Assembly: GCA_051882895.1 (NCBI GenBank)
Contig: JBJESR010000172.1
Coordinates: 1 to 41,294, forward strand
DNA: 41,294 bases
Source: Lentihominibacter sp.
GTDB taxonomy: Bacteria > Bacillota > Clostridia > Peptostreptococcales > Anaerovoracaceae
Direction: 5' to 3'
Part shown: positions 598-41,294 of the stretch, piece by piece
How positions within the stretch are numbered: position 1 is the stretch's first letter
Layout of the letters: every line of letters begins with the position of its first letter
Translations under genes and position numbers: made by a program
The notes under the pieces: generated by a model
Database searches by the model: none
The model's input: only the letters and a program-made list of their open reading frames with translations
Told to the model about the DNA's origin: nothing

Positions 598-726
598 TCC
601 TTATTAAGAGCGGCGGAGGGAATAGGCCCTGTGAAGCCCGGCAACCTGCGTTGTTCTCTTTATACATCAGAGAGAACAGGTATAGGTGCTAAATCCTACA
701 GGATATTGTATTCTGAAAGATGAGGA
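598..726 (+). ncRNA. SAM-I (S-box) riboswitch
   Basis: CTTATTAAGAG-CGGCGGAGGGA..GGCCC..GAAGCCCGGCAACC...GGTGCTAAATCC...AAGATGAG follows the SAM-I consensus and lies upstream of metK. Confidence 0.95.
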
Positions 727-23558: not shown

Positions 23559-25037
23559 GTGGATAAAGAAGTCAGAAAGATCAATGACATCCTGGTGAAT
23601 CTTTTTAATCTTGTGCTTAAGCTGGAAGAGGATGCGATCCGCAAAGACTCCTCACACAATAATGTATCCATTAAAGAAGTCCATACGCTGGTGGCAATCG
23701 GGACCGGACGTCCCAAGACAATGACTCACGTGGCAAATATACTGGGCATAAATGTGAGCACACTTACTATAGCCATCAACAGGCTGGTGAAAAAGGGATA
23801 TGTAAAAAGACTTCGCGATGAAAAGGACAGAAGAATCGTGAAGGTAGGACTGACTGAGGATGGCATTTCCGCAGTCAGGGCTCATGAAGAGTTTCATACA
23901 AGCATGATAAGTGAAGCTGTTGCGGGGATGCCCACTGATGAATTAAAACAGTTTGTATCGTCGATAGACAATATACAGCAGTTTCTCATGATGAGAAGTG
24001 CCACCTACCACAATGGGGCTGAATCGTTTTCTATGGCGCCGATTAAACTTGGAAATCATGAACTGCCTGTACCTCTGGTACAGGCAGGAATGAGCATGGG
24101 AATAGCAGCATCAGGGCTTGCTTCAGCCGTTGCCATCGAAGGCGGCCTCGGTCTTATAGGTGCTCTTGAAATAGGGCAGGGAAGACCGGGATACGAAGAA
24201 AACCGGCTTGAGACCAATCTGAAGACGGTAAAAGAAGAGGTGTCCAGAGCCATACAGCTGACAGAGGAAGCAGGAGGCAAAGGTCTTATCGGAATATCTA
24301 TCATGTGGAACAGACCTCATGTGGATAAATATATTGAGACAGCAGTGAAAGCCGGCGCACAGGTGATTGTCACTGGAGGCGCTATTCCGAAAGATCTGCC
24401 GAAATACTGCAATGACAGGAATGTAGCTCTTGTTCCTACGGTTTCATCTAAGCGTGCGGTGTCTGCTATAATGAGAACGTGGACTCAGAAATACAACAGA
24501 ACGCCGGATGCTTTCATTTTTCAGGGACCTCAGGCAGCAGGGCTGCTGGGATTCAGAATGGGGCAGCTTGACAGAGCACGGGAGGAGCAGTACAGAACAA
24601 TGGCTGCTGTCAGAGCGGAGCTTTCGAAGCTTGAGAACTGCCCGCTTATTTTCGGAGGAGGCATATACAGCCGTGAAGATGCTGTCAGAGCATATCAGTA
24701 TGGCGCTGATGGTTATCTTCTGGGAACGAGATTCGTGACAACCCGTGAGTGCGATGCACCGGAAGAATTCAGGAAGCTGTATTTGAACTGCAGTGAAAAT
24801 GATGTTACAATAATCAGGAGCCCTATGAAAACATCAGTGAGAGTACTCAATACACCATTTGCCGGCAGACTTGATAAAGAAGGTGCTGAAGATTATGACA
24901 TTGTTGAGGCGGCTGTCAGAGGAGTACAGGGTGATCTTGAGAACGGTCTGGTGTTCTGCAGCGAAACAGCAGGCAGAACTGACAGACTTGAGACAGTCAG
25001 AGATGTTTTCAGGGAGTTTACAACTCTGAAGAAATGA
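23559..25037 (+). CDS. Fusion of a MarR/FabT-like repressor and a degenerate nitronate-monooxygenase (FabK/FabX-like) domain
   Basis: aa 1-~146 is a MarR wHTH (EVHTL...STLTIAINRLVKKGYVKR...DRR). aa ~159-492 is an NMO-like barrel (PLVQAGM, GGLGLI, GGGI, GTRF, GLVFC). One uninterrupted frame. Confidence 0.85.
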   Translation: MDKEVRKINDILVNLFNLVLKLEEDAIRKDSSHNNVSIKEVHTLVAIGTGRPKTMTHVANILGINVSTLTIAINRLVKKGYVKRLRDEKDRRIVKVGLTEDGISAVRAHEEFHTSMISEAVAGMPTDELKQFVSSIDNIQQFLMMRSATYHNGAESFSMAPIKLGNHELPVPLVQAGMSMGIAASGLASAVAIEGGLGLIGALEIGQGRPGYEENRLETNLKTVKEEVSRAIQLTEEAGGKGLIGISIMWNRPHVDKYIETAVKAGAQVIVTGGAIPKDLPKYCNDRNVALVPTVSSKRAVSAIMRTWTQKYNRTPDAFIFQGPQAAGLLGFRMGQLDRAREEQYRTMAAVRAELSKLENCPLIFGGGIYSREDAVRAYQYGADGYLLGTRFVTTRECDAPEEFRKLYLNCSENDVTIIRSPMKTSVRVLNTPFAGRLDKEGAEDYDIVEAAVRGVQGDLENGLVFCSETAGRTDRLETVRDVFREFTTLKK

Positions 25038-38009: not shown

Positions 38010-38038
38010 TTGAAATAAAGCTGATATTGGTGTATGAT
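38010..38038 (+). promoter_or_regulatory. Promoter of the riboswitch leader
   Basis: TTGAAA-N17-TATGAT. Confidence 0.7.
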
Positions 38039-38057
38039 TTATTATATAAATTGAATA

Positions 38058-38200
38058 TCAGTGCTTTTTCGAGCTGGAAAACCTAACGATGCTGCTGGTA
38101 TACGGTTGATTGAATTGTAAGTTTATTACAGGCATCTATGGTTGACAGACGACAGGGTGTGTCGGGAAACCGGCATGCCTCCCGTATTTGGAAAGAAATC
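38058..38200 (+). ncRNA. Molybdenum-cofactor (Moco/Wco) RNA motif riboswitch
   Basis: CGAGC..ACCTAA..TACGGT, then the CAGGGTGTGTCGG-GAAA-CCGGCATGCCT hairpin and GCCTCCCGTATTTGGAAAG (38177-38195). This matches the 3' end of the E. coli moaA leader as I recall it. Boundaries approximate. Confidence 0.85.
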
Positions 38201-38237
38201 GCGACTTTATTTTGAAGATGACTGTATTATAGAATTT

Positions 38238-38273
38238 AAGGTCGGTTTCCTTGGGAAATCGGCTTTTGTTTTT
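38238..38273 (+). terminator. Riboswitch expression-platform terminator
   Basis: AAGGTCGGTTTCC/GGAAATCGGCTT stem plus T tract; an alternative pairing with 38195-38208 is possible. Confidence 0.8.
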
Positions 38274-38408
38274 ATTATGTAGGAAATATCGTTTCGATAT
38301 TTCCGGAATATCAACAAAGTACACTTCTCCGATAGAATCGGCGAAGCCGACTTTGTTCTTATGGTCAGTTTTTGTTGAAACAGTACATACGGGTTGAAAA
38401 TGCAATTG

Positions 38409-38450
38409 ACACTGCAGCAGCAATCTGAGACTGTTGCAGTGTTTTTTTTT
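38409..38450 (+). terminator. Second leader terminator directly before the RBS
   Basis: ACACTGCAGCAG/CTGTTGCAGTGT stem followed by a T run to 38450, then AGGAGG. Confidence 0.75.
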
Positions 38451-38462
38451 CAGGAGGTTAAA

Positions 38463-40217
38463 ATGAATGCGGTTAAGCGAAATTGGATATGTGCAGTTTC
38501 TTTGATAATGTTGATGTTTACTATGTATTTATGCTGCAGCAGAGATACGGATGCATATGCGTCAGAAGAGGCTGTTCTGTCTGTATATCAGAGCAGTGAT
38601 CTGACAACTCCGGTAAGAACATTTGACTTGAATGAGCTTAAGGAGATTGCGGCACAAGAAGGTGGGAAAAAATATAATTACTCAGGTTATAACACATTCC
38701 CGTCCTTCAAAGAATGCATAAATGTAGAGGGGCCAACGTTAATCGGAATAATAAATGCATCAGGATTGAACTTGAATTCAGGTGAAACGGTAAAGATTTC
38801 GGATAAAAGCGGGTATTCGACAACATTGATTGCCGAGGAGCTCTCAGAGGACCGGTATTATTTCCCCAAGGGAAAAAATGGAACAGAAAATGGGAATGCA
38901 GCACCAGAGGAGTCTTATGAAGGAGCAGTCAAAGTTCCGGCAATAATTGACATAAGTGACGTCGGGCTGGAAGATAATGGTGTGCTGCGATTCGGTCAGG
39001 TTGCACCTAATGAACAGAATTTCCCGGGATTTGTTAAATATGTTCTTAACGATGGGAAAATAATAGTAGGTGGTAATGCGGAAAAATGCGAGTCGGTACA
39101 GAATATTACAGATAGCAACGGCAATCCGCTGGCAGATAATACAAGTGTTATCAAAGGCACCGAGCTTCATATCGAAGAACCGGAGAAGAATGTGAAGATT
39201 TATTATACATTAGATGGCAGTGAGCCTACTGATGGATCTCAGATATACAATTATTCTGAATATGTAGATATTAAATATCCGAAGCTGGATACTGCCGGTA
39301 GTATTATTTTAAAGGTAAAAACCGTAAAATACGGTAAGTACGATAGTGAAACAAGCACATTTATATATAATGTGGTATCAGAGGCAACACCTGTACCTGA
39401 AGAATTTAAAGCTGCAAGAGCAGGGTACAGCAGCATTAAGCTTACATGGAAAGCAGCTGGCAATATCGATTCATATAATATATACAGGAAAAGCAGCGGA
39501 GAAGCAGAATTTAAAAAAGTGGCAGAAATGGAGGCAGGAAGCACTTCGTATACTGATAAGGACCTGAAAACCGGCACGACGTACAGTTATAGGATCACTG
39601 CAGTGGCTTCAGGTCTGGAAAGTGATTTTTCAGCGACAGCCAGTGCTACACCGACAACAGCAGTACCCGGCTCATTCAAGGCTGCAAGAGCAGGATACAG
39701 CAGTATAAAACTTACATGGGATCCTGTAAGCGGTGCCAGCGGATACCGGATCTATCAGTATGATTCAAAAACCAGGACTTATAAACACAGGGAATATGTT
39801 ACCGGAGGAAAGTCAGAATCAACTGTTATCACAGGACTGAAAACCGGCACAAAATATTATTTTAAAATAAGATCATACAGGACTGTGGACGGAGAAAGGA
39901 AATACAGTGGCCTGTCATCCAGCCGATATGCTGTTACGTCACTTTCCACACCATCGATAAAGAAACTGACACCGGGAACAAAAAAAGTTACAGTAAGCTG
40001 GAATAAGATCAGCGGAGCACACGGATATAAGCTTTACAGGGCAACAAGCAGATCGGGCTCATACAAACTTGTGAAAACAACAAGTTCAACGTCATTTACA
40101 GACAGATCACTTAAAAAAGGCAAAAAATATTATTATAAGTTAAAAGCTTACCGAAAGGTTGACGGTAAATTAAAATACAGCAGCTATTCAGCTGTAAAGT
40201 ATACAACAGCAAAGTAA
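38463..40217 (+). CDS. Secreted/surface protein: sulfite-oxidase-like (Moco-binding-like) domain, chitobiase-like Ig domain and three FN3 repeats
   Basis: Signal peptide ending AYA; TFDLNELK..YNYSGYN..GPTL..GY..LRFGQ..FVKYV; IYYTLDGSEP; FN3 W..Y..L.Y patterns. Start ATG 38463 after AGGAGG. Confidence 0.75.
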   Translation: MNAVKRNWICAVSLIMLMFTMYLCCSRDTDAYASEEAVLSVYQSSDLTTPVRTFDLNELKEIAAQEGGKKYNYSGYNTFPSFKECINVEGPTLIGIINASGLNLNSGETVKISDKSGYSTTLIAEELSEDRYYFPKGKNGTENGNAAPEESYEGAVKVPAIIDISDVGLEDNGVLRFGQVAPNEQNFPGFVKYVLNDGKIIVGGNAEKCESVQNITDSNGNPLADNTSVIKGTELHIEEPEKNVKIYYTLDGSEPTDGSQIYNYSEYVDIKYPKLDTAGSIILKVKTVKYGKYDSETSTFIYNVVSEATPVPEEFKAARAGYSSIKLTWKAAGNIDSYNIYRKSSGEAEFKKVAEMEAGSTSYTDKDLKTGTTYSYRITAVASGLESDFSATASATPTTAVPGSFKAARAGYSSIKLTWDPVSGASGYRIYQYDSKTRTYKHREYVTGGKSESTVITGLKTGTKYYFKIRSYRTVDGERKYSGLSSSRYAVTSLSTPSIKKLTPGTKKVTVSWNKISGAHGYKLYRATSRSGSYKLVKTTSSTSFTDRSLKKGKKYYYKLKAYRKVDGKLKYSSYSAVKYTTAK

Positions 40218-41294
40218 AGTTAATGAAGAAAAGAAGTTAAGAAGGAGAGGTAAAGATGAGAACTAAACAGAACTTCAGGAAATCATTATTACATTGTTTT
40301 CTCGTGTTTCTGGCAGTGGCTGTCACTGTTACTATGACACCTGTGAACATGGACAGAGCATACGCTGAAACAGGAGAGCAGGAGACAGTATTGACTGTAA
40401 ATGATACAGGCTATACTAAAGAACAGGTGCTCCAGATGGAGAGTGTGGTAAAGAGCTATACATACACATCAAAGCAAGAAGAAAAAACAGATTATGTTAA
40501 GGGTGTGCTGCTGGAAGAACTTTTAAAGGATTTTGATAAAAGTCTTACAGTAGAATTCGGCAATGTGGACGGTTACACAATATCAAGACAGAATATGACT
40601 CTTCAGTCTCTGATTGACGGACAGGCTATCCTGGCTTACCAGTGCGGAACCGATGAATCGTCACTTGATGATGTCTATGATACATCAAAGGATTATCCTG
40701 ATAAATCCGGCTGCCTGAGACTCTATACTAATGACAATCAGAAGCCTGATAAGATGATAAACAGCATCAAGGTAACTGAATCAGGCAGCACGGATCCGGG
40801 AGAAGAACCAACAGCAGATCTTGTTATTAATGGCGATGCTGCAGCCGTTGAAAAAAGCTATACAATTGAAGAGTTAAAAGCTGATAGCGCTTTAGATAAG
40901 AAGCAGAACATCAAGTATTCCTGGACAAACAGAACAGGAACTAATGGTGAATCTGAAGTTACAGGTGTAACTGTAAAGAGCCTTATTGAAGCCATCGGAC
41001 TTAAAACTAATTATGCAGAGATTACTATTGTACCATCAGATGAAGAGAATTCGAGAACTTTTAATATCAGTGATATGTATGCTGCTGATATAGACAATAA
41101 TTATCCACTATTAGCATGGAAGGTTGATGGTGAAAAGAATGGCCTTACGCTGATAATCGGCAAGAAAACTCAAGATGATCAGAATAAGAGCAGCTGGATC
41201 AAAAACATTAAGAAAATAGAAATCAATATCAAAGACGGTAAATTAGCTGCACCTGCATCATTCAAAGCGGCACGAGCAGGATACAGCAGCATTA
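39405..41294 (+). repeat. FN3 module start shared within and between the two surface proteins
   Basis: FKAARAGYSSI(KLTW) is encoded at 39405, 39675 and 41261 (the last copy is cut by the window edge). Confidence 0.85.
40256..41294 (+). CDS. Secreted/surface protein with two tandem sulfite-oxidase-like domains and FN3 (runs off the right edge)
   Basis: Manual translation MRTKQNFRKSLLHCFLVFLAVAV...AYA. Domain 1: GVLLEELL..DGY..ILAY..LRL. Domain 2: LVING..YTIEELK..TGVTVKSLI..LLAWKVDG..WIKNIKKIEI. AAGGAGAGG RBS. Not in the ORF track. Confidence 0.8.
   Translation, partial: MRTKQNFRKSLLHCFLVFLAVAVTVTMTPVNMDRAYAETGEQETVLTVNDTGYTKEQVLQMESVVKSYTYTSKQEEKTDYVKGVLLEELLKDFDKSLTVEFGNVDGYTISRQNMTLQSLIDGQAILAYQCGTDESSLDDVYDTSKDYPDKSGCLRLYTNDNQKPDKMINSIKVTESGSTDPGEEPTADLVINGDAAAVEKSYTIEELKADSALDKKQNIKYSWTNRTGTNGESEVTGVTVKSLIEAIGLKTNYAEITIVPSDEENSRTFNISDMYAADIDNNYPLLAWKVDGEKNGLTLIIGKKTQDDQNKSSWIKNIKKIEINIKDGKLAAPASFKAARAGYSSI

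What the first reader, a model, noticed from the sequence alone, without database searches (positions are those of the whole stretch)
38010..41294. Moco riboswitch controlling secreted, Cys-less sulfite-oxidase-fold surface proteins: possible Mo/W-cofactor scavenging system
Seen: a promoter, a Moco-class RNA motif and terminators precede two signal-peptide proteins. Together these carry three domains with the MsrP/YedY-like pattern (LxIxG..YTIEEL..TGVxxxxL..DGY..LLAW/Y.xDG..LxL..WIKxIxxI) joined to FN3 stalks. The pattern is clearest in the second domain of 40256 and weakest in 38463. Where the Mo-ligating Cys should fall, the segments read YSWTN, YTYTS and YSGYN. Known: Moco RNAs typically precede Moco biosynthesis, molybdate transport or molybdoenzyme genes. 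Inference: these are non-catalytic surface receptors for pterin cofactor or metal-pterin, expressed when cofactor is scarce, analogous to B12 or heme capture proteins. I know of no characterised system like this.
Basis: partly seen in the sequence, partly recalled or inferred. Interest (0 to 1): 0.9.

Follow-up and report, generated by a model that had tools for sequence, protein, structure and literature searches.

The report
Bacterial tungsten/molybdenum cofactor scavenging operon
An RNA switch of the molybdenum/tungsten-cofactor class sits in front of a run of genes for predicted surface proteins, which carry cysteine-free domains predicted to have the cofactor-binding fold, and for a vitamin-B12-type importer, and this set likely lets bacteria take up the ready-made cofactor, which is generally thought to be made only inside the cell that uses it.

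Summary
Observation confirmed. Rfam RF01055 matches 38055-38214 (46.1 bits; P3-less, tungsten-type), followed by a terminator with a conserved antiterminator (OFF-switch layout). All three domains belong to one family; the two I modelled match sulfite-oxidase/PruR folds (Z 11-16); none has the Mo-ligating Cys. The window shows only the start of a nine-gene operon: ORF B continues past a scaffold gap; a ~2150-aa nine-domain protein, a BtuCDF-type importer, ExbB/DUF2149 and two more domain proteins follow. Relatives use this importer or an ECF module, sometimes fused to the domain. The domain occurs in 36 of 77 family genomes with AOR/XDH enzymes, 2 of 74 without; 8 of 11 with enzymes but no moaC/moeA have it. 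Best reading: import of intact Mo/W-pyranopterin (0.65); binding and transport are untested. Corrections: this genome keeps moaA/moaC/moeA, so it is not an auxotroph, and a characterised Cys-less pterin binder exists (PruR; a sensor, said not to fit Moco). Ten literature searches found no prokaryotic Moco importer. This scan noted the same system before on other DNA (eight unchecked notes).

The parts
38010..38038 (+). sigma-70-type promoter candidate
   Evidence: 10/12 match; -35 hexamer kept and -10-like hexamer at the same place in L010
38055..38214 (+). Moco/Wco riboswitch aptamer (RF01055), P3-less type, with a 43-nt P2 extension
   Evidence: 46.1 bits, gathering 36, E 5.1e-8
38195..38209 (+). 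3' strand of the aptamer that can pair with the 5' arm of the terminator (predicted antiterminator)
   Evidence: duplex -11.8 kcal/mol, 37 of 2000 shuffles as good; both strands conserved in L010
38238..38276 (+). intrinsic terminator of the expression platform (13-pair stem plus T run)
38276..38360 (.). dispersed ~85-bp palindromic repeat inserted in the leader; not part of the switch
   Evidence: copies on C158, C107, C208, C114, C258, C60, C173 and others; absent from L010
38408..38450 (+). second terminator-like hairpin (-19.5 kcal/mol, 9 T) just before the ribosome-binding site; unique in the genome, absent from L010; role unexplained
38463..40217 (+). ORF A, 584 aa: signal peptide, one Cys-less sulfite-oxidase-fold domain, Fn3-associated domain, basic FN3 tail (pI about 10)
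38574..39071 (+). domain A (YSGYN subtype; G at the Cys position)
40256..41294 (+). ORF B, first 346 of about 516 aa: signal peptide, two Cys-less domains, FN3 tail continuing past the scaffold gap
40388..40777 (+). domain B1 (keeps DGY; lacks the C-terminal Trp); not modelled
40817..41227 (+). domain B2 (Trp at the Cys position as in PruR; keeps W-x-K; DGY Tyr lost here but kept in two orthologues)

Best explanation
The two genes open a nine-gene operon behind a tungsten/molybdenum-cofactor-class riboswitch, and this operon likely captures intact metal-pyranopterin cofactor at the cell surface and likely imports it. Inferred steps: when cofactor is scarce the aptamer's 3' strand pairs with the terminator arm and the operon is read through. 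Exported proteins A, B, the ~2150-aa protein and two further proteins display 14 cysteine-free sulfite-oxidase-fold domains on FN3/Ig stalks, a sortase-like tail or a lipid anchor. Domains with an intact pocket hold the pterin ring and phosphate without ligating the metal, so the labile cofactor stays protein-bound but can be released. It is passed to the BtuF-like binding protein and BtuCD-like permease/ATPase (an ECF module in many relatives). An invariant flavinylation-type motif in the giant protein, with apbE in or near several clusters, suggests a redox step that keeps the dithiolene-pterin reduced. In this genome, which can make its own cofactor, the system would be a salvage route; in some relatives it would be the only source. 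Shown: riboswitch match, switch layout, family membership, loss of Cys, operon content, co-occurrence. Predicted: fold. Inferred: surface location, ligand, hand-off, direction of transport.
For: Riboswitch and OFF layout. Fold. Operon: contig ends overlap C172 to C203 (12 nt) to C10 (8 nt); a 2147-aa protein matches both halves of the giant gene at 96-98%; relative L010 has riboswitch, A, a B-like gene, permease, ATPase, binding protein, D, ExbB and E on one contig. Importer families: FecCD 279 bits, Peripla_BP_2 98 bits, best NCBIfam BtuC. In 12 of 20 regions fetched from 19 other-family Bacillota genomes an RF01055 hit lies upstream of or inside the cluster on its strand; rough background about 1 hit per 3 Mb (104 hits in 150 genomes, hand count). 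ECF S component (PF09819) fused to the domain in G006 and, by BLAST label, in 3 of the 20 regions. Minimal modules riboswitch-SBP-permease-ATPase-domain lipoprotein beside AOR in G051 and G120, and riboswitch-S component-domain in G101. Domain in 36 of 77 AOR/XDH genomes against 2 of 74 others. G008, G097, G006, G255 and G476 (95-98% complete; G255 in 2 contigs) have AOR and/or XDH and large clusters, with no moaA, moaC, moeA or mogA found. Of 185 domains outside the MsrP type, 162 keep D/N and 121 Y/F at PruR's N102/Y104 positions, and 2 have a Cys within four residues after the Tyr.
Against: No binding, transport or expression data. This genome is a prototroph, as are 23 of the 27 phylum genomes tested for moaC. 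Enrichment in apparent auxotrophs is not significant: 8 of 11 against 21 of 46 prototrophs, p = 0.18, and kin are not independent. G014, G049 and G091 have enzymes, no moaC/moeA and no domain; G005 and G021 have the domain and no AOR, XDH or PF00384 enzyme. PruR's pocket is described as too short for Moco (PMC11194511, section 12); I could not measure the pocket in my models. Only 68 of 185 domains keep all three pterin-contact positions, and none of the three window domains does. Seven of the 20 phylum regions and several family clusters (G006, G145, G123, G062, G137, G099) show no RF01055. The same riboswitch class also leads tup, moa, AOR and XDH genes, so it marks Mo/W metabolism, not uptake as such. 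Free Moco is unstable outside proteins (PMC9026282, passages), so the environmental source is unclear. Apparent gene absences rest on draft genomes.
Confidence: 0.65

Rival explanations
1. The system salvages a metal-free pterin (cPMP, MPT, an oxidised breakdown product or a simple pterin such as PruR binds), which the cell then completes or uses elsewhere.
For: Closest Cys-less structural relative binds small non-Moco pterins (PMC11194511). Metallophosphoesterases lie in many clusters, some fused to the ECF T component. Most carriers keep biosynthesis genes.
Against: Five high-completeness carriers lack mogA and moeA as well as moaA and moaC, so a metal-free precursor could not be finished by the known route. 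The domain tracks Mo/W enzymes, 36 of 77 against 2 of 74.
Confidence: 0.12
2. The proteins form an extracellular redox apparatus or a cofactor-holding scaffold: they bind a cofactor that needs no protein ligand (W-bis-MPT as in AOR; recalled) and take electrons from flavinylated partners, or they deliver cofactor to exported enzymes; the importer carries a product.
For: D-x-ITGAT-type motif in 120 of 120 giant homologues; FMN_bind-domain fusions, apbE and NapH-like genes in clusters; high conservation of the giant protein (46-68% identity in most hits); the riboswitch class also leads enzyme genes.
Against: Minimal modules hold only a transporter and one small domain; fusion to an ECF S component; OFF-switch layout means expression when cofactor is scarce; presence in genomes that cannot make the cofactor.
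Confidence: 0.1
3. The system imports tungsten or molybdenum itself as a chelate (metallophore-like), not the cofactor.
For: FecCD/Peripla_BP_2 importers carry metal chelates; tup operons share the riboswitch; no TupA-like protein was found with one query in four of five apparent auxotrophs.
Against: This genome has modA and several carriers have tupABC next door; metal alone is useless to genomes without pterin synthesis; conserved positions are those of pterin binding.
Confidence: 0.07
4. The domains are pterin sensors, like PruR, that signal through a membrane partner (here perhaps ExbB/DUF2149), or degenerate adhesin repeats.
For: PruR precedent (PMC11194511); degenerate pockets in many copies; FN3, S-layer and Ig stalks.
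Against: No DcpA-like cyclase or kinase among the operon genes annotated; transporter linkage and fusions; metabolite-repressed layout.
Confidence: 0.06

Closest known systems
PruR periplasmic pterin-binding proteins of Agrobacterium, Vibrio, Klebsiella (PDB 7kos, 7kou, 7kom, 7kp2, 7rkb; PMC11194511)
   Same: Exported, stand-alone sulfite-oxidase fold, Mo-ligating Cys replaced (Trp in PruR and in domain B2), N/D-x-Y motif and C-terminal Trp kept in many family members.
   Different: PruR is a single ~170-aa proteobacterial domain paired with DcpA-type c-di-GMP or kinase regulators and binds non-Moco pterins. Here the domains are in Bacillota, in tandem arrays of up to about ten, on wall anchors, behind a Moco/Wco riboswitch and linked or fused to importers; identity 8-22%.
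Sulfite oxidase family enzymes (SorA, SoxC, MsrP/YedY; PF00174)
   Same: Core Moco-binding fold (Z up to 15.8, rmsd 2.4 over 130 residues); many members keep W/F-x-K at the C-terminal strand.
   Different: No catalytic Cys, short hairpin, no dimerisation domain, no MsrQ or cytochrome partner seen. True MsrP-type genes with C-x-E-G-W occur separately in 5 of 151 family genomes.
Riboswitch-controlled B12 uptake (BtuCDF, ECF BtuM/CbrT-type, surface B12-binding proteins) and Gram-positive Isd heme capture (recalled)
   Same: Cofactor-repressed operon of surface capture proteins plus a type II ABC importer or group I ECF module; best NCBIfam matches BtuC and IsdE/BtuF, all below cut-off.
   Different: Different riboswitch, different capture fold, and a predicted cargo (Mo/W-pyranopterin) for which my searches found no prokaryotic transporter.
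Moco/Tuco riboswitch regulon (Regulski et al. 2008, PMC2408646)
   Same: P3-less RNA in a genome with AOR; the paper lists two P3-less RNAs of Syntrophomonas wolfei ahead of 'putative sulphite oxidase' genes as exceptions.
   Different: The paper read those genes as enzymes. They may be members of this Cys-less family (not checked), which would explain the exception.
Dietary Moco uptake by Caenorhabditis elegans (PMC9026282 passages; PMC7849362 listing only)
   Same: Precedent that protein-bound Moco can be acquired from outside.
   Different: Animal; mechanism unknown; no homology claimed.

Membership tests
Moco/Wco riboswitch (RF01055) | Covariance-model score above gathering threshold | tested here: met
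   46.1 bits against 36
Moco/Wco riboswitch (RF01055) | P3-less subtype in a genome with tungsten-type enzymes | tested here: met
   P3 deleted and in 9 of 9 further RF01055 alignments shown; AOR in genome
Moco/Wco riboswitch (RF01055) | Expression platform (terminator/antiterminator) | tested here: met
   predicted by folding, conserved in L010
Moco/Wco riboswitch (RF01055) | Ligand-dependent repression | not testable with these tools
   needs a reporter or in-line probing
Sulfite oxidase family enzymes | Oxidored_molyb core fold | tested here: met
   for A and B2; profile evidence for B1
Sulfite oxidase family enzymes | Mo-ligating cysteine | tested here: not met
   four MsrP-type controls show the Cys in the same alignment
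PruR pterin-binding proteins | Cys-less sulfite-oxidase fold with export signal | tested here: met
PruR pterin-binding proteins | N102/Y104/W160 pterin contacts and PW motif | tested here: inconclusive
   each window domain lacks one contact; 68 of 185 family domains keep all three; positions assigned by profile alignment, not by superposed coordinates
PruR pterin-binding proteins | Small single-domain protein in an operon with a DcpA-type regulator | tested here: not met
   multi-domain proteins followed by an ABC importer, ExbB and DUF2149
PruR pterin-binding proteins | Pterin binding | not testable with these tools
   needs a binding assay
Type II (BtuCDF/FecCD) ABC importer operon | FecCD permease, ATPase and Peripla_BP_2 binding protein in one operon with the surface proteins | tested here: met
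   linkage in this assembly rests on short contig-end overlaps plus synteny in L010
B12 or heme importers (BtuC, BtuF, IsdE equivalogs) | NCBIfam cut-off and matching regulation | tested here: not met
   BtuC 213 against 334, IsdE 50 against 299; leader is RF01055, not cobalamin
ApbE-flavinylated extracytosolic proteins | [S/T]GA[S/T] motif in an exported protein, apbE in the genome | tested here: met
   motif in the giant downstream protein, 120 of 120 homologues; apbE on C187; motif definition from PMC11334425 passages; actual modification untested

The most novel reading that the evidence does not exclude
Many anaerobic Bacillota scavenge the intact tungsten/molybdenum cofactor from their surroundings with arrays of repurposed sulfite-oxidase domains, a flavin-based redox step and dedicated ABC or ECF importers, and some have become true cofactor auxotrophs. 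Moco/Wco would then be a shared, vitamin-like good in gut and digester communities.
Probability: 0.55. Interest if true: 0.92.

Novelty: new variant of a known kind. Interest (0 to 1): 0.8.

Why it matters
A review passage states that Moco must be made by the cell that uses it, with C. elegans the only known exception and its route not understood (PMC9026282). A defined bacterial importer, with minimal four-gene versions and genomes that appear to depend on it, makes cofactor cross-feeding directly testable. It could explain why some anaerobes grow only in co-culture, would re-annotate many 'molybdopterin-dependent oxidoreductase' and S-layer genes as binding proteins, and could supply small Moco-stabilising domains of use in enzyme maturation work and in research on Moco deficiency.

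Tried and rejected
Single-sequence PDB search with B2 found nothing; profiles were needed. The A-subtype profile gave no significant natural PDB match. The one genome-contig scan with full ORF A returned mostly FN3 matches; only L010 and L035 were useful. ESM Atlas gave leads under 0.9 only. The 1.84-billion representative search and the complex prediction (binding protein with lipoprotein E) never ran, so family breadth outside Bacillota and the hand-off remain open. PF12849 hits in this genome look like phosphate-binding proteins, not TupA. PF00994 hits in five apparent auxotrophs are CinA, not MogA. Four genomes whose only hit was a true MsrP-type gene (G017, G054, G089, G096) were dropped before the 38-genome count; an earlier count with profile A1 missed small members and wrongly kept G096, and is superseded. 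DMSO-reductase-family enzymes were screened in only 5 genomes, so 'without enzymes' means without AOR or XDH. A crude terminator scan over 24 relatives' leaders had no control and is not used. A frameshift in ORF B was rejected: it is a scaffold gap. Literature searches found no prokaryotic Moco importer; the library lacks most subscription papers, and supplements of PMC2408646, PMC3766115 and PMC8238504, which list regulated or clustered genes, were not read.
Full report
1. Observation. The leader is real. Rfam RF01055 matches 38055-38214 at 46.1 bits (gathering 36) with the P3 stem deleted, the subtype that Regulski et al. link to tungsten cofactor (PMC2408646, section 11 and passages read). 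A 13-pair terminator follows at 38238-38266. Folding the nascent leader pairs the aptamer's 3' strand (38195-38209) with the terminator's 5' arm (-11.8 kcal/mol; 37 of 2000 shuffles as good), and both strands are conserved in relative L010 while the sequence between them diverges. This is the layout of an OFF switch; ligand response is inferred. Two further hairpins are a dispersed repeat; a fourth, with 9 T just before the ribosome-binding site, is unique and unexplained.

2. The domains. Pfam alone is weak (PF00174 17 bits for ORF B, none for A). A profile of 13 copies from this genome hit PDB 7kom (E 1.6e-9) and SorA; a 140-row profile hit SorA at 9e-18, four PruR entries, and YedY. AlphaFold models of B2 (pLDDT 93.6) and A (89.1) match SorA Z 15.8 and PruR Z 14.9, and PruR Z 11.2 and SoxC Z 10.7, next unrelated fold 5.5. 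Leave-out profiles place A, B1 and B2 in the family at 32, 57 and 62 bits, shuffles at most 8. Among 189 collected domains, 4 have the MsrP C-x-E-G-W motif; the one whose surroundings I annotated lies about 15 kb from the cluster in its genome. Of the other 185, 2 have a Cys within four residues after the Tyr. PruR holds its pterin between Y104 and W160 with N102, and its pocket is described as too short for Moco (PMC11194511, part 2, passages and section 12 read). By profile alignment 162, 121 and 80 of 185 domains keep these three positions, 68 keep all, and 97 keep K/R two residues after the Trp position; that this Lys contacts the cofactor phosphate in sulfite oxidases is recalled, not checked. 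The window's own three domains each lack one position.

3. The operon. The window ends at a 100-N gap whose flanks repeat, so ORF B continues into FN3 domains (516-aa homologue at 97%). A third gene runs off contig C172, whose end overlaps C203 by 12 nt; C203 overlaps C10 by 8 nt. A 2147-aa database protein matches the two halves at 97.6% and 96.2%: nine domains, a propeller and a sortase-like tail (read by eye). C10 carries a FecCD permease, ATPase, Peripla_BP_2 protein, a domain-plus-Ig protein, ExbB/MotA, DUF2149 and a domain lipoprotein. L010, a single 170-kb contig, has the same order from sigH through the riboswitch to tuf, without the giant gene. The genome has three more RF01055 hits, ahead of other surface proteins, binding proteins and FecCD permeases, as well as AOR, four XDH-family matches, moaA, moaC, mogA, moeA, modA and apbE. 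It is therefore not an auxotroph. Named relatives of the giant protein include Mogibacterium, Syntrophomonas and Proteiniborus; I infer an anaerobic clostridial host.

4. Relatives. In 151 family genomes the 140-row profile hit 42; four whose only hit is a true MsrP-type gene were removed, leaving 38. They are 36 of 77 genomes with AOR or XDH and 2 of 74 without (kin not independent; DMSO-reductase family not screened family-wide). Eleven genomes have enzymes but neither moaC nor moeA; 8 have the domain, against 21 of 46 prototrophs (p 0.18). In the phylum sample 65 of 401 genomes matched the A-subtype profile; of the 27 strongest, 23 have moaC. I fetched 20 regions from 19 of those genomes: 13 hold RF01055, in 12 upstream of or inside the cluster on its strand. 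G008, G097, G006, G255 and G476 (95-98% complete) have AOR and/or XDH and large clusters, yet no moaA, moaC, moeA or mogA was found. The transporter is either FecCD-type or an ECF module with a PF09819 S component, fused to the domain in G006 and by BLAST label in three phylum regions. G051 and G120 have a minimal riboswitch-SBP-permease-ATPase-lipoprotein module beside AOR; G101 has riboswitch-S component-domain. Against: three apparent auxotrophs have no domain, two carriers have no Mo/W enzyme found, and a riboswitch-less subtype, often beside a Crp-type regulator, exists.

5. Accessory features. The giant protein has a D-x-ITGAT-type motif in 120 of 120 homologues, matching the ApbE flavinylation motif (PMC11334425, passages). 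apbE lies inside riboswitch-led clusters in G406 and G347, and FMN_bind-domain fusions and NapH-like genes occur in others. Metallophosphoesterases are frequent, sometimes fused to the ECF T component. I read these as redox protection and trimming of the cargo; this is inference.

6. Mechanism. Most likely (0.65): cofactor scarcity turns the operon on; Cys-less domains capture metal-pyranopterin without ligating the metal and pass it to the importer. Loss of mogA and moeA in some carriers is the main reason to prefer metal-loaded cofactor over a precursor. Rivals: metal-free pterin salvage (0.12), redox scaffold or cofactor delivery outside the cell (0.10), metal-chelate uptake (0.07), sensing or adhesion (0.06).

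7. Relation to what is known. It works like riboswitch-controlled B12 or heme scavenging (recalled), but is not a member of those families. The domains share PruR's fold and loss of Cys but fail its operon definition; a 2026 review of PruR has no mention of Gram-positive members or riboswitches in a term search (PMC13259868, passages). PMC3766115, PMC9481103 and PMC8238504 (passages) show no such system. PMC9026282 (passages) names C. elegans as the only known Moco importer. Ten searches found no prokaryotic case; the library is incomplete and supplements were not read. Eight unchecked notes of this scan describe the same kind of system on other genomes, including archaea; I had reached this reading before seeing them and do not count them as evidence.

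8. Verdict. Real feature; new variant of a known kind (surface capture plus importer) with a predicted cargo not described for prokaryotes. Interest 0.8.

Noticed in passing
window 38276-38360: Dispersed ~85-bp palindromic repeat, about a dozen further copies in the genome, MITE/REP-like.
   Followed up: partly
window 38408-38450: Strong unique hairpin plus 9 T directly before ORF A's ribosome-binding site; its 5' arm can pair with the P2 extension of the aptamer (-15.7 kcal/mol, no control). Absent in L010.
   Followed up: partly
window 598-726: SAM riboswitch ahead of metK and an aspartokinase gene; ordinary.
   Followed up: no
window 23559-25037: MarR-type regulator fused to a nitronate-monooxygenase/FabK-like domain at the end of the fatty-acid synthesis cluster.
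   Followed up: no
L008:2364-2520 and 1389-2261 (G000 C166): RF01055 ahead of a TiaS/methanogenesis-marker-11-like gene and a FecCD permease; a second RF01055 leads two large surface proteins without the sulfite-oxidase-like domain; a MoeA-methyltransferase fusion lies between.
   Followed up: partly
L009:4420-12231 (G000 C86): RF01055 ahead of a lipoprotein with no Pfam match, a 1490-aa surface protein and a FecCD permease, divergent from AOR and an XDH-family gene: a possible second cofactor-related importer.
   Followed up: partly
L148:2361-3056 (G097): A true Cys-containing MsrP-type exported enzyme in a genome where no Moco biosynthesis genes were found.
   Followed up: partly
L007:833-1782 (G000 C10): ExbB/MotA-like plus DUF2149 pair inside a monoderm operon; recurs in many clusters; role unknown.
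   Followed up: partly
L155:8236-10443 (G021): Four-domain protein beside a Crp-like gene in a 99%-complete genome with no Mo/W enzyme or biosynthesis gene found: possible remnant.
   Followed up: partly
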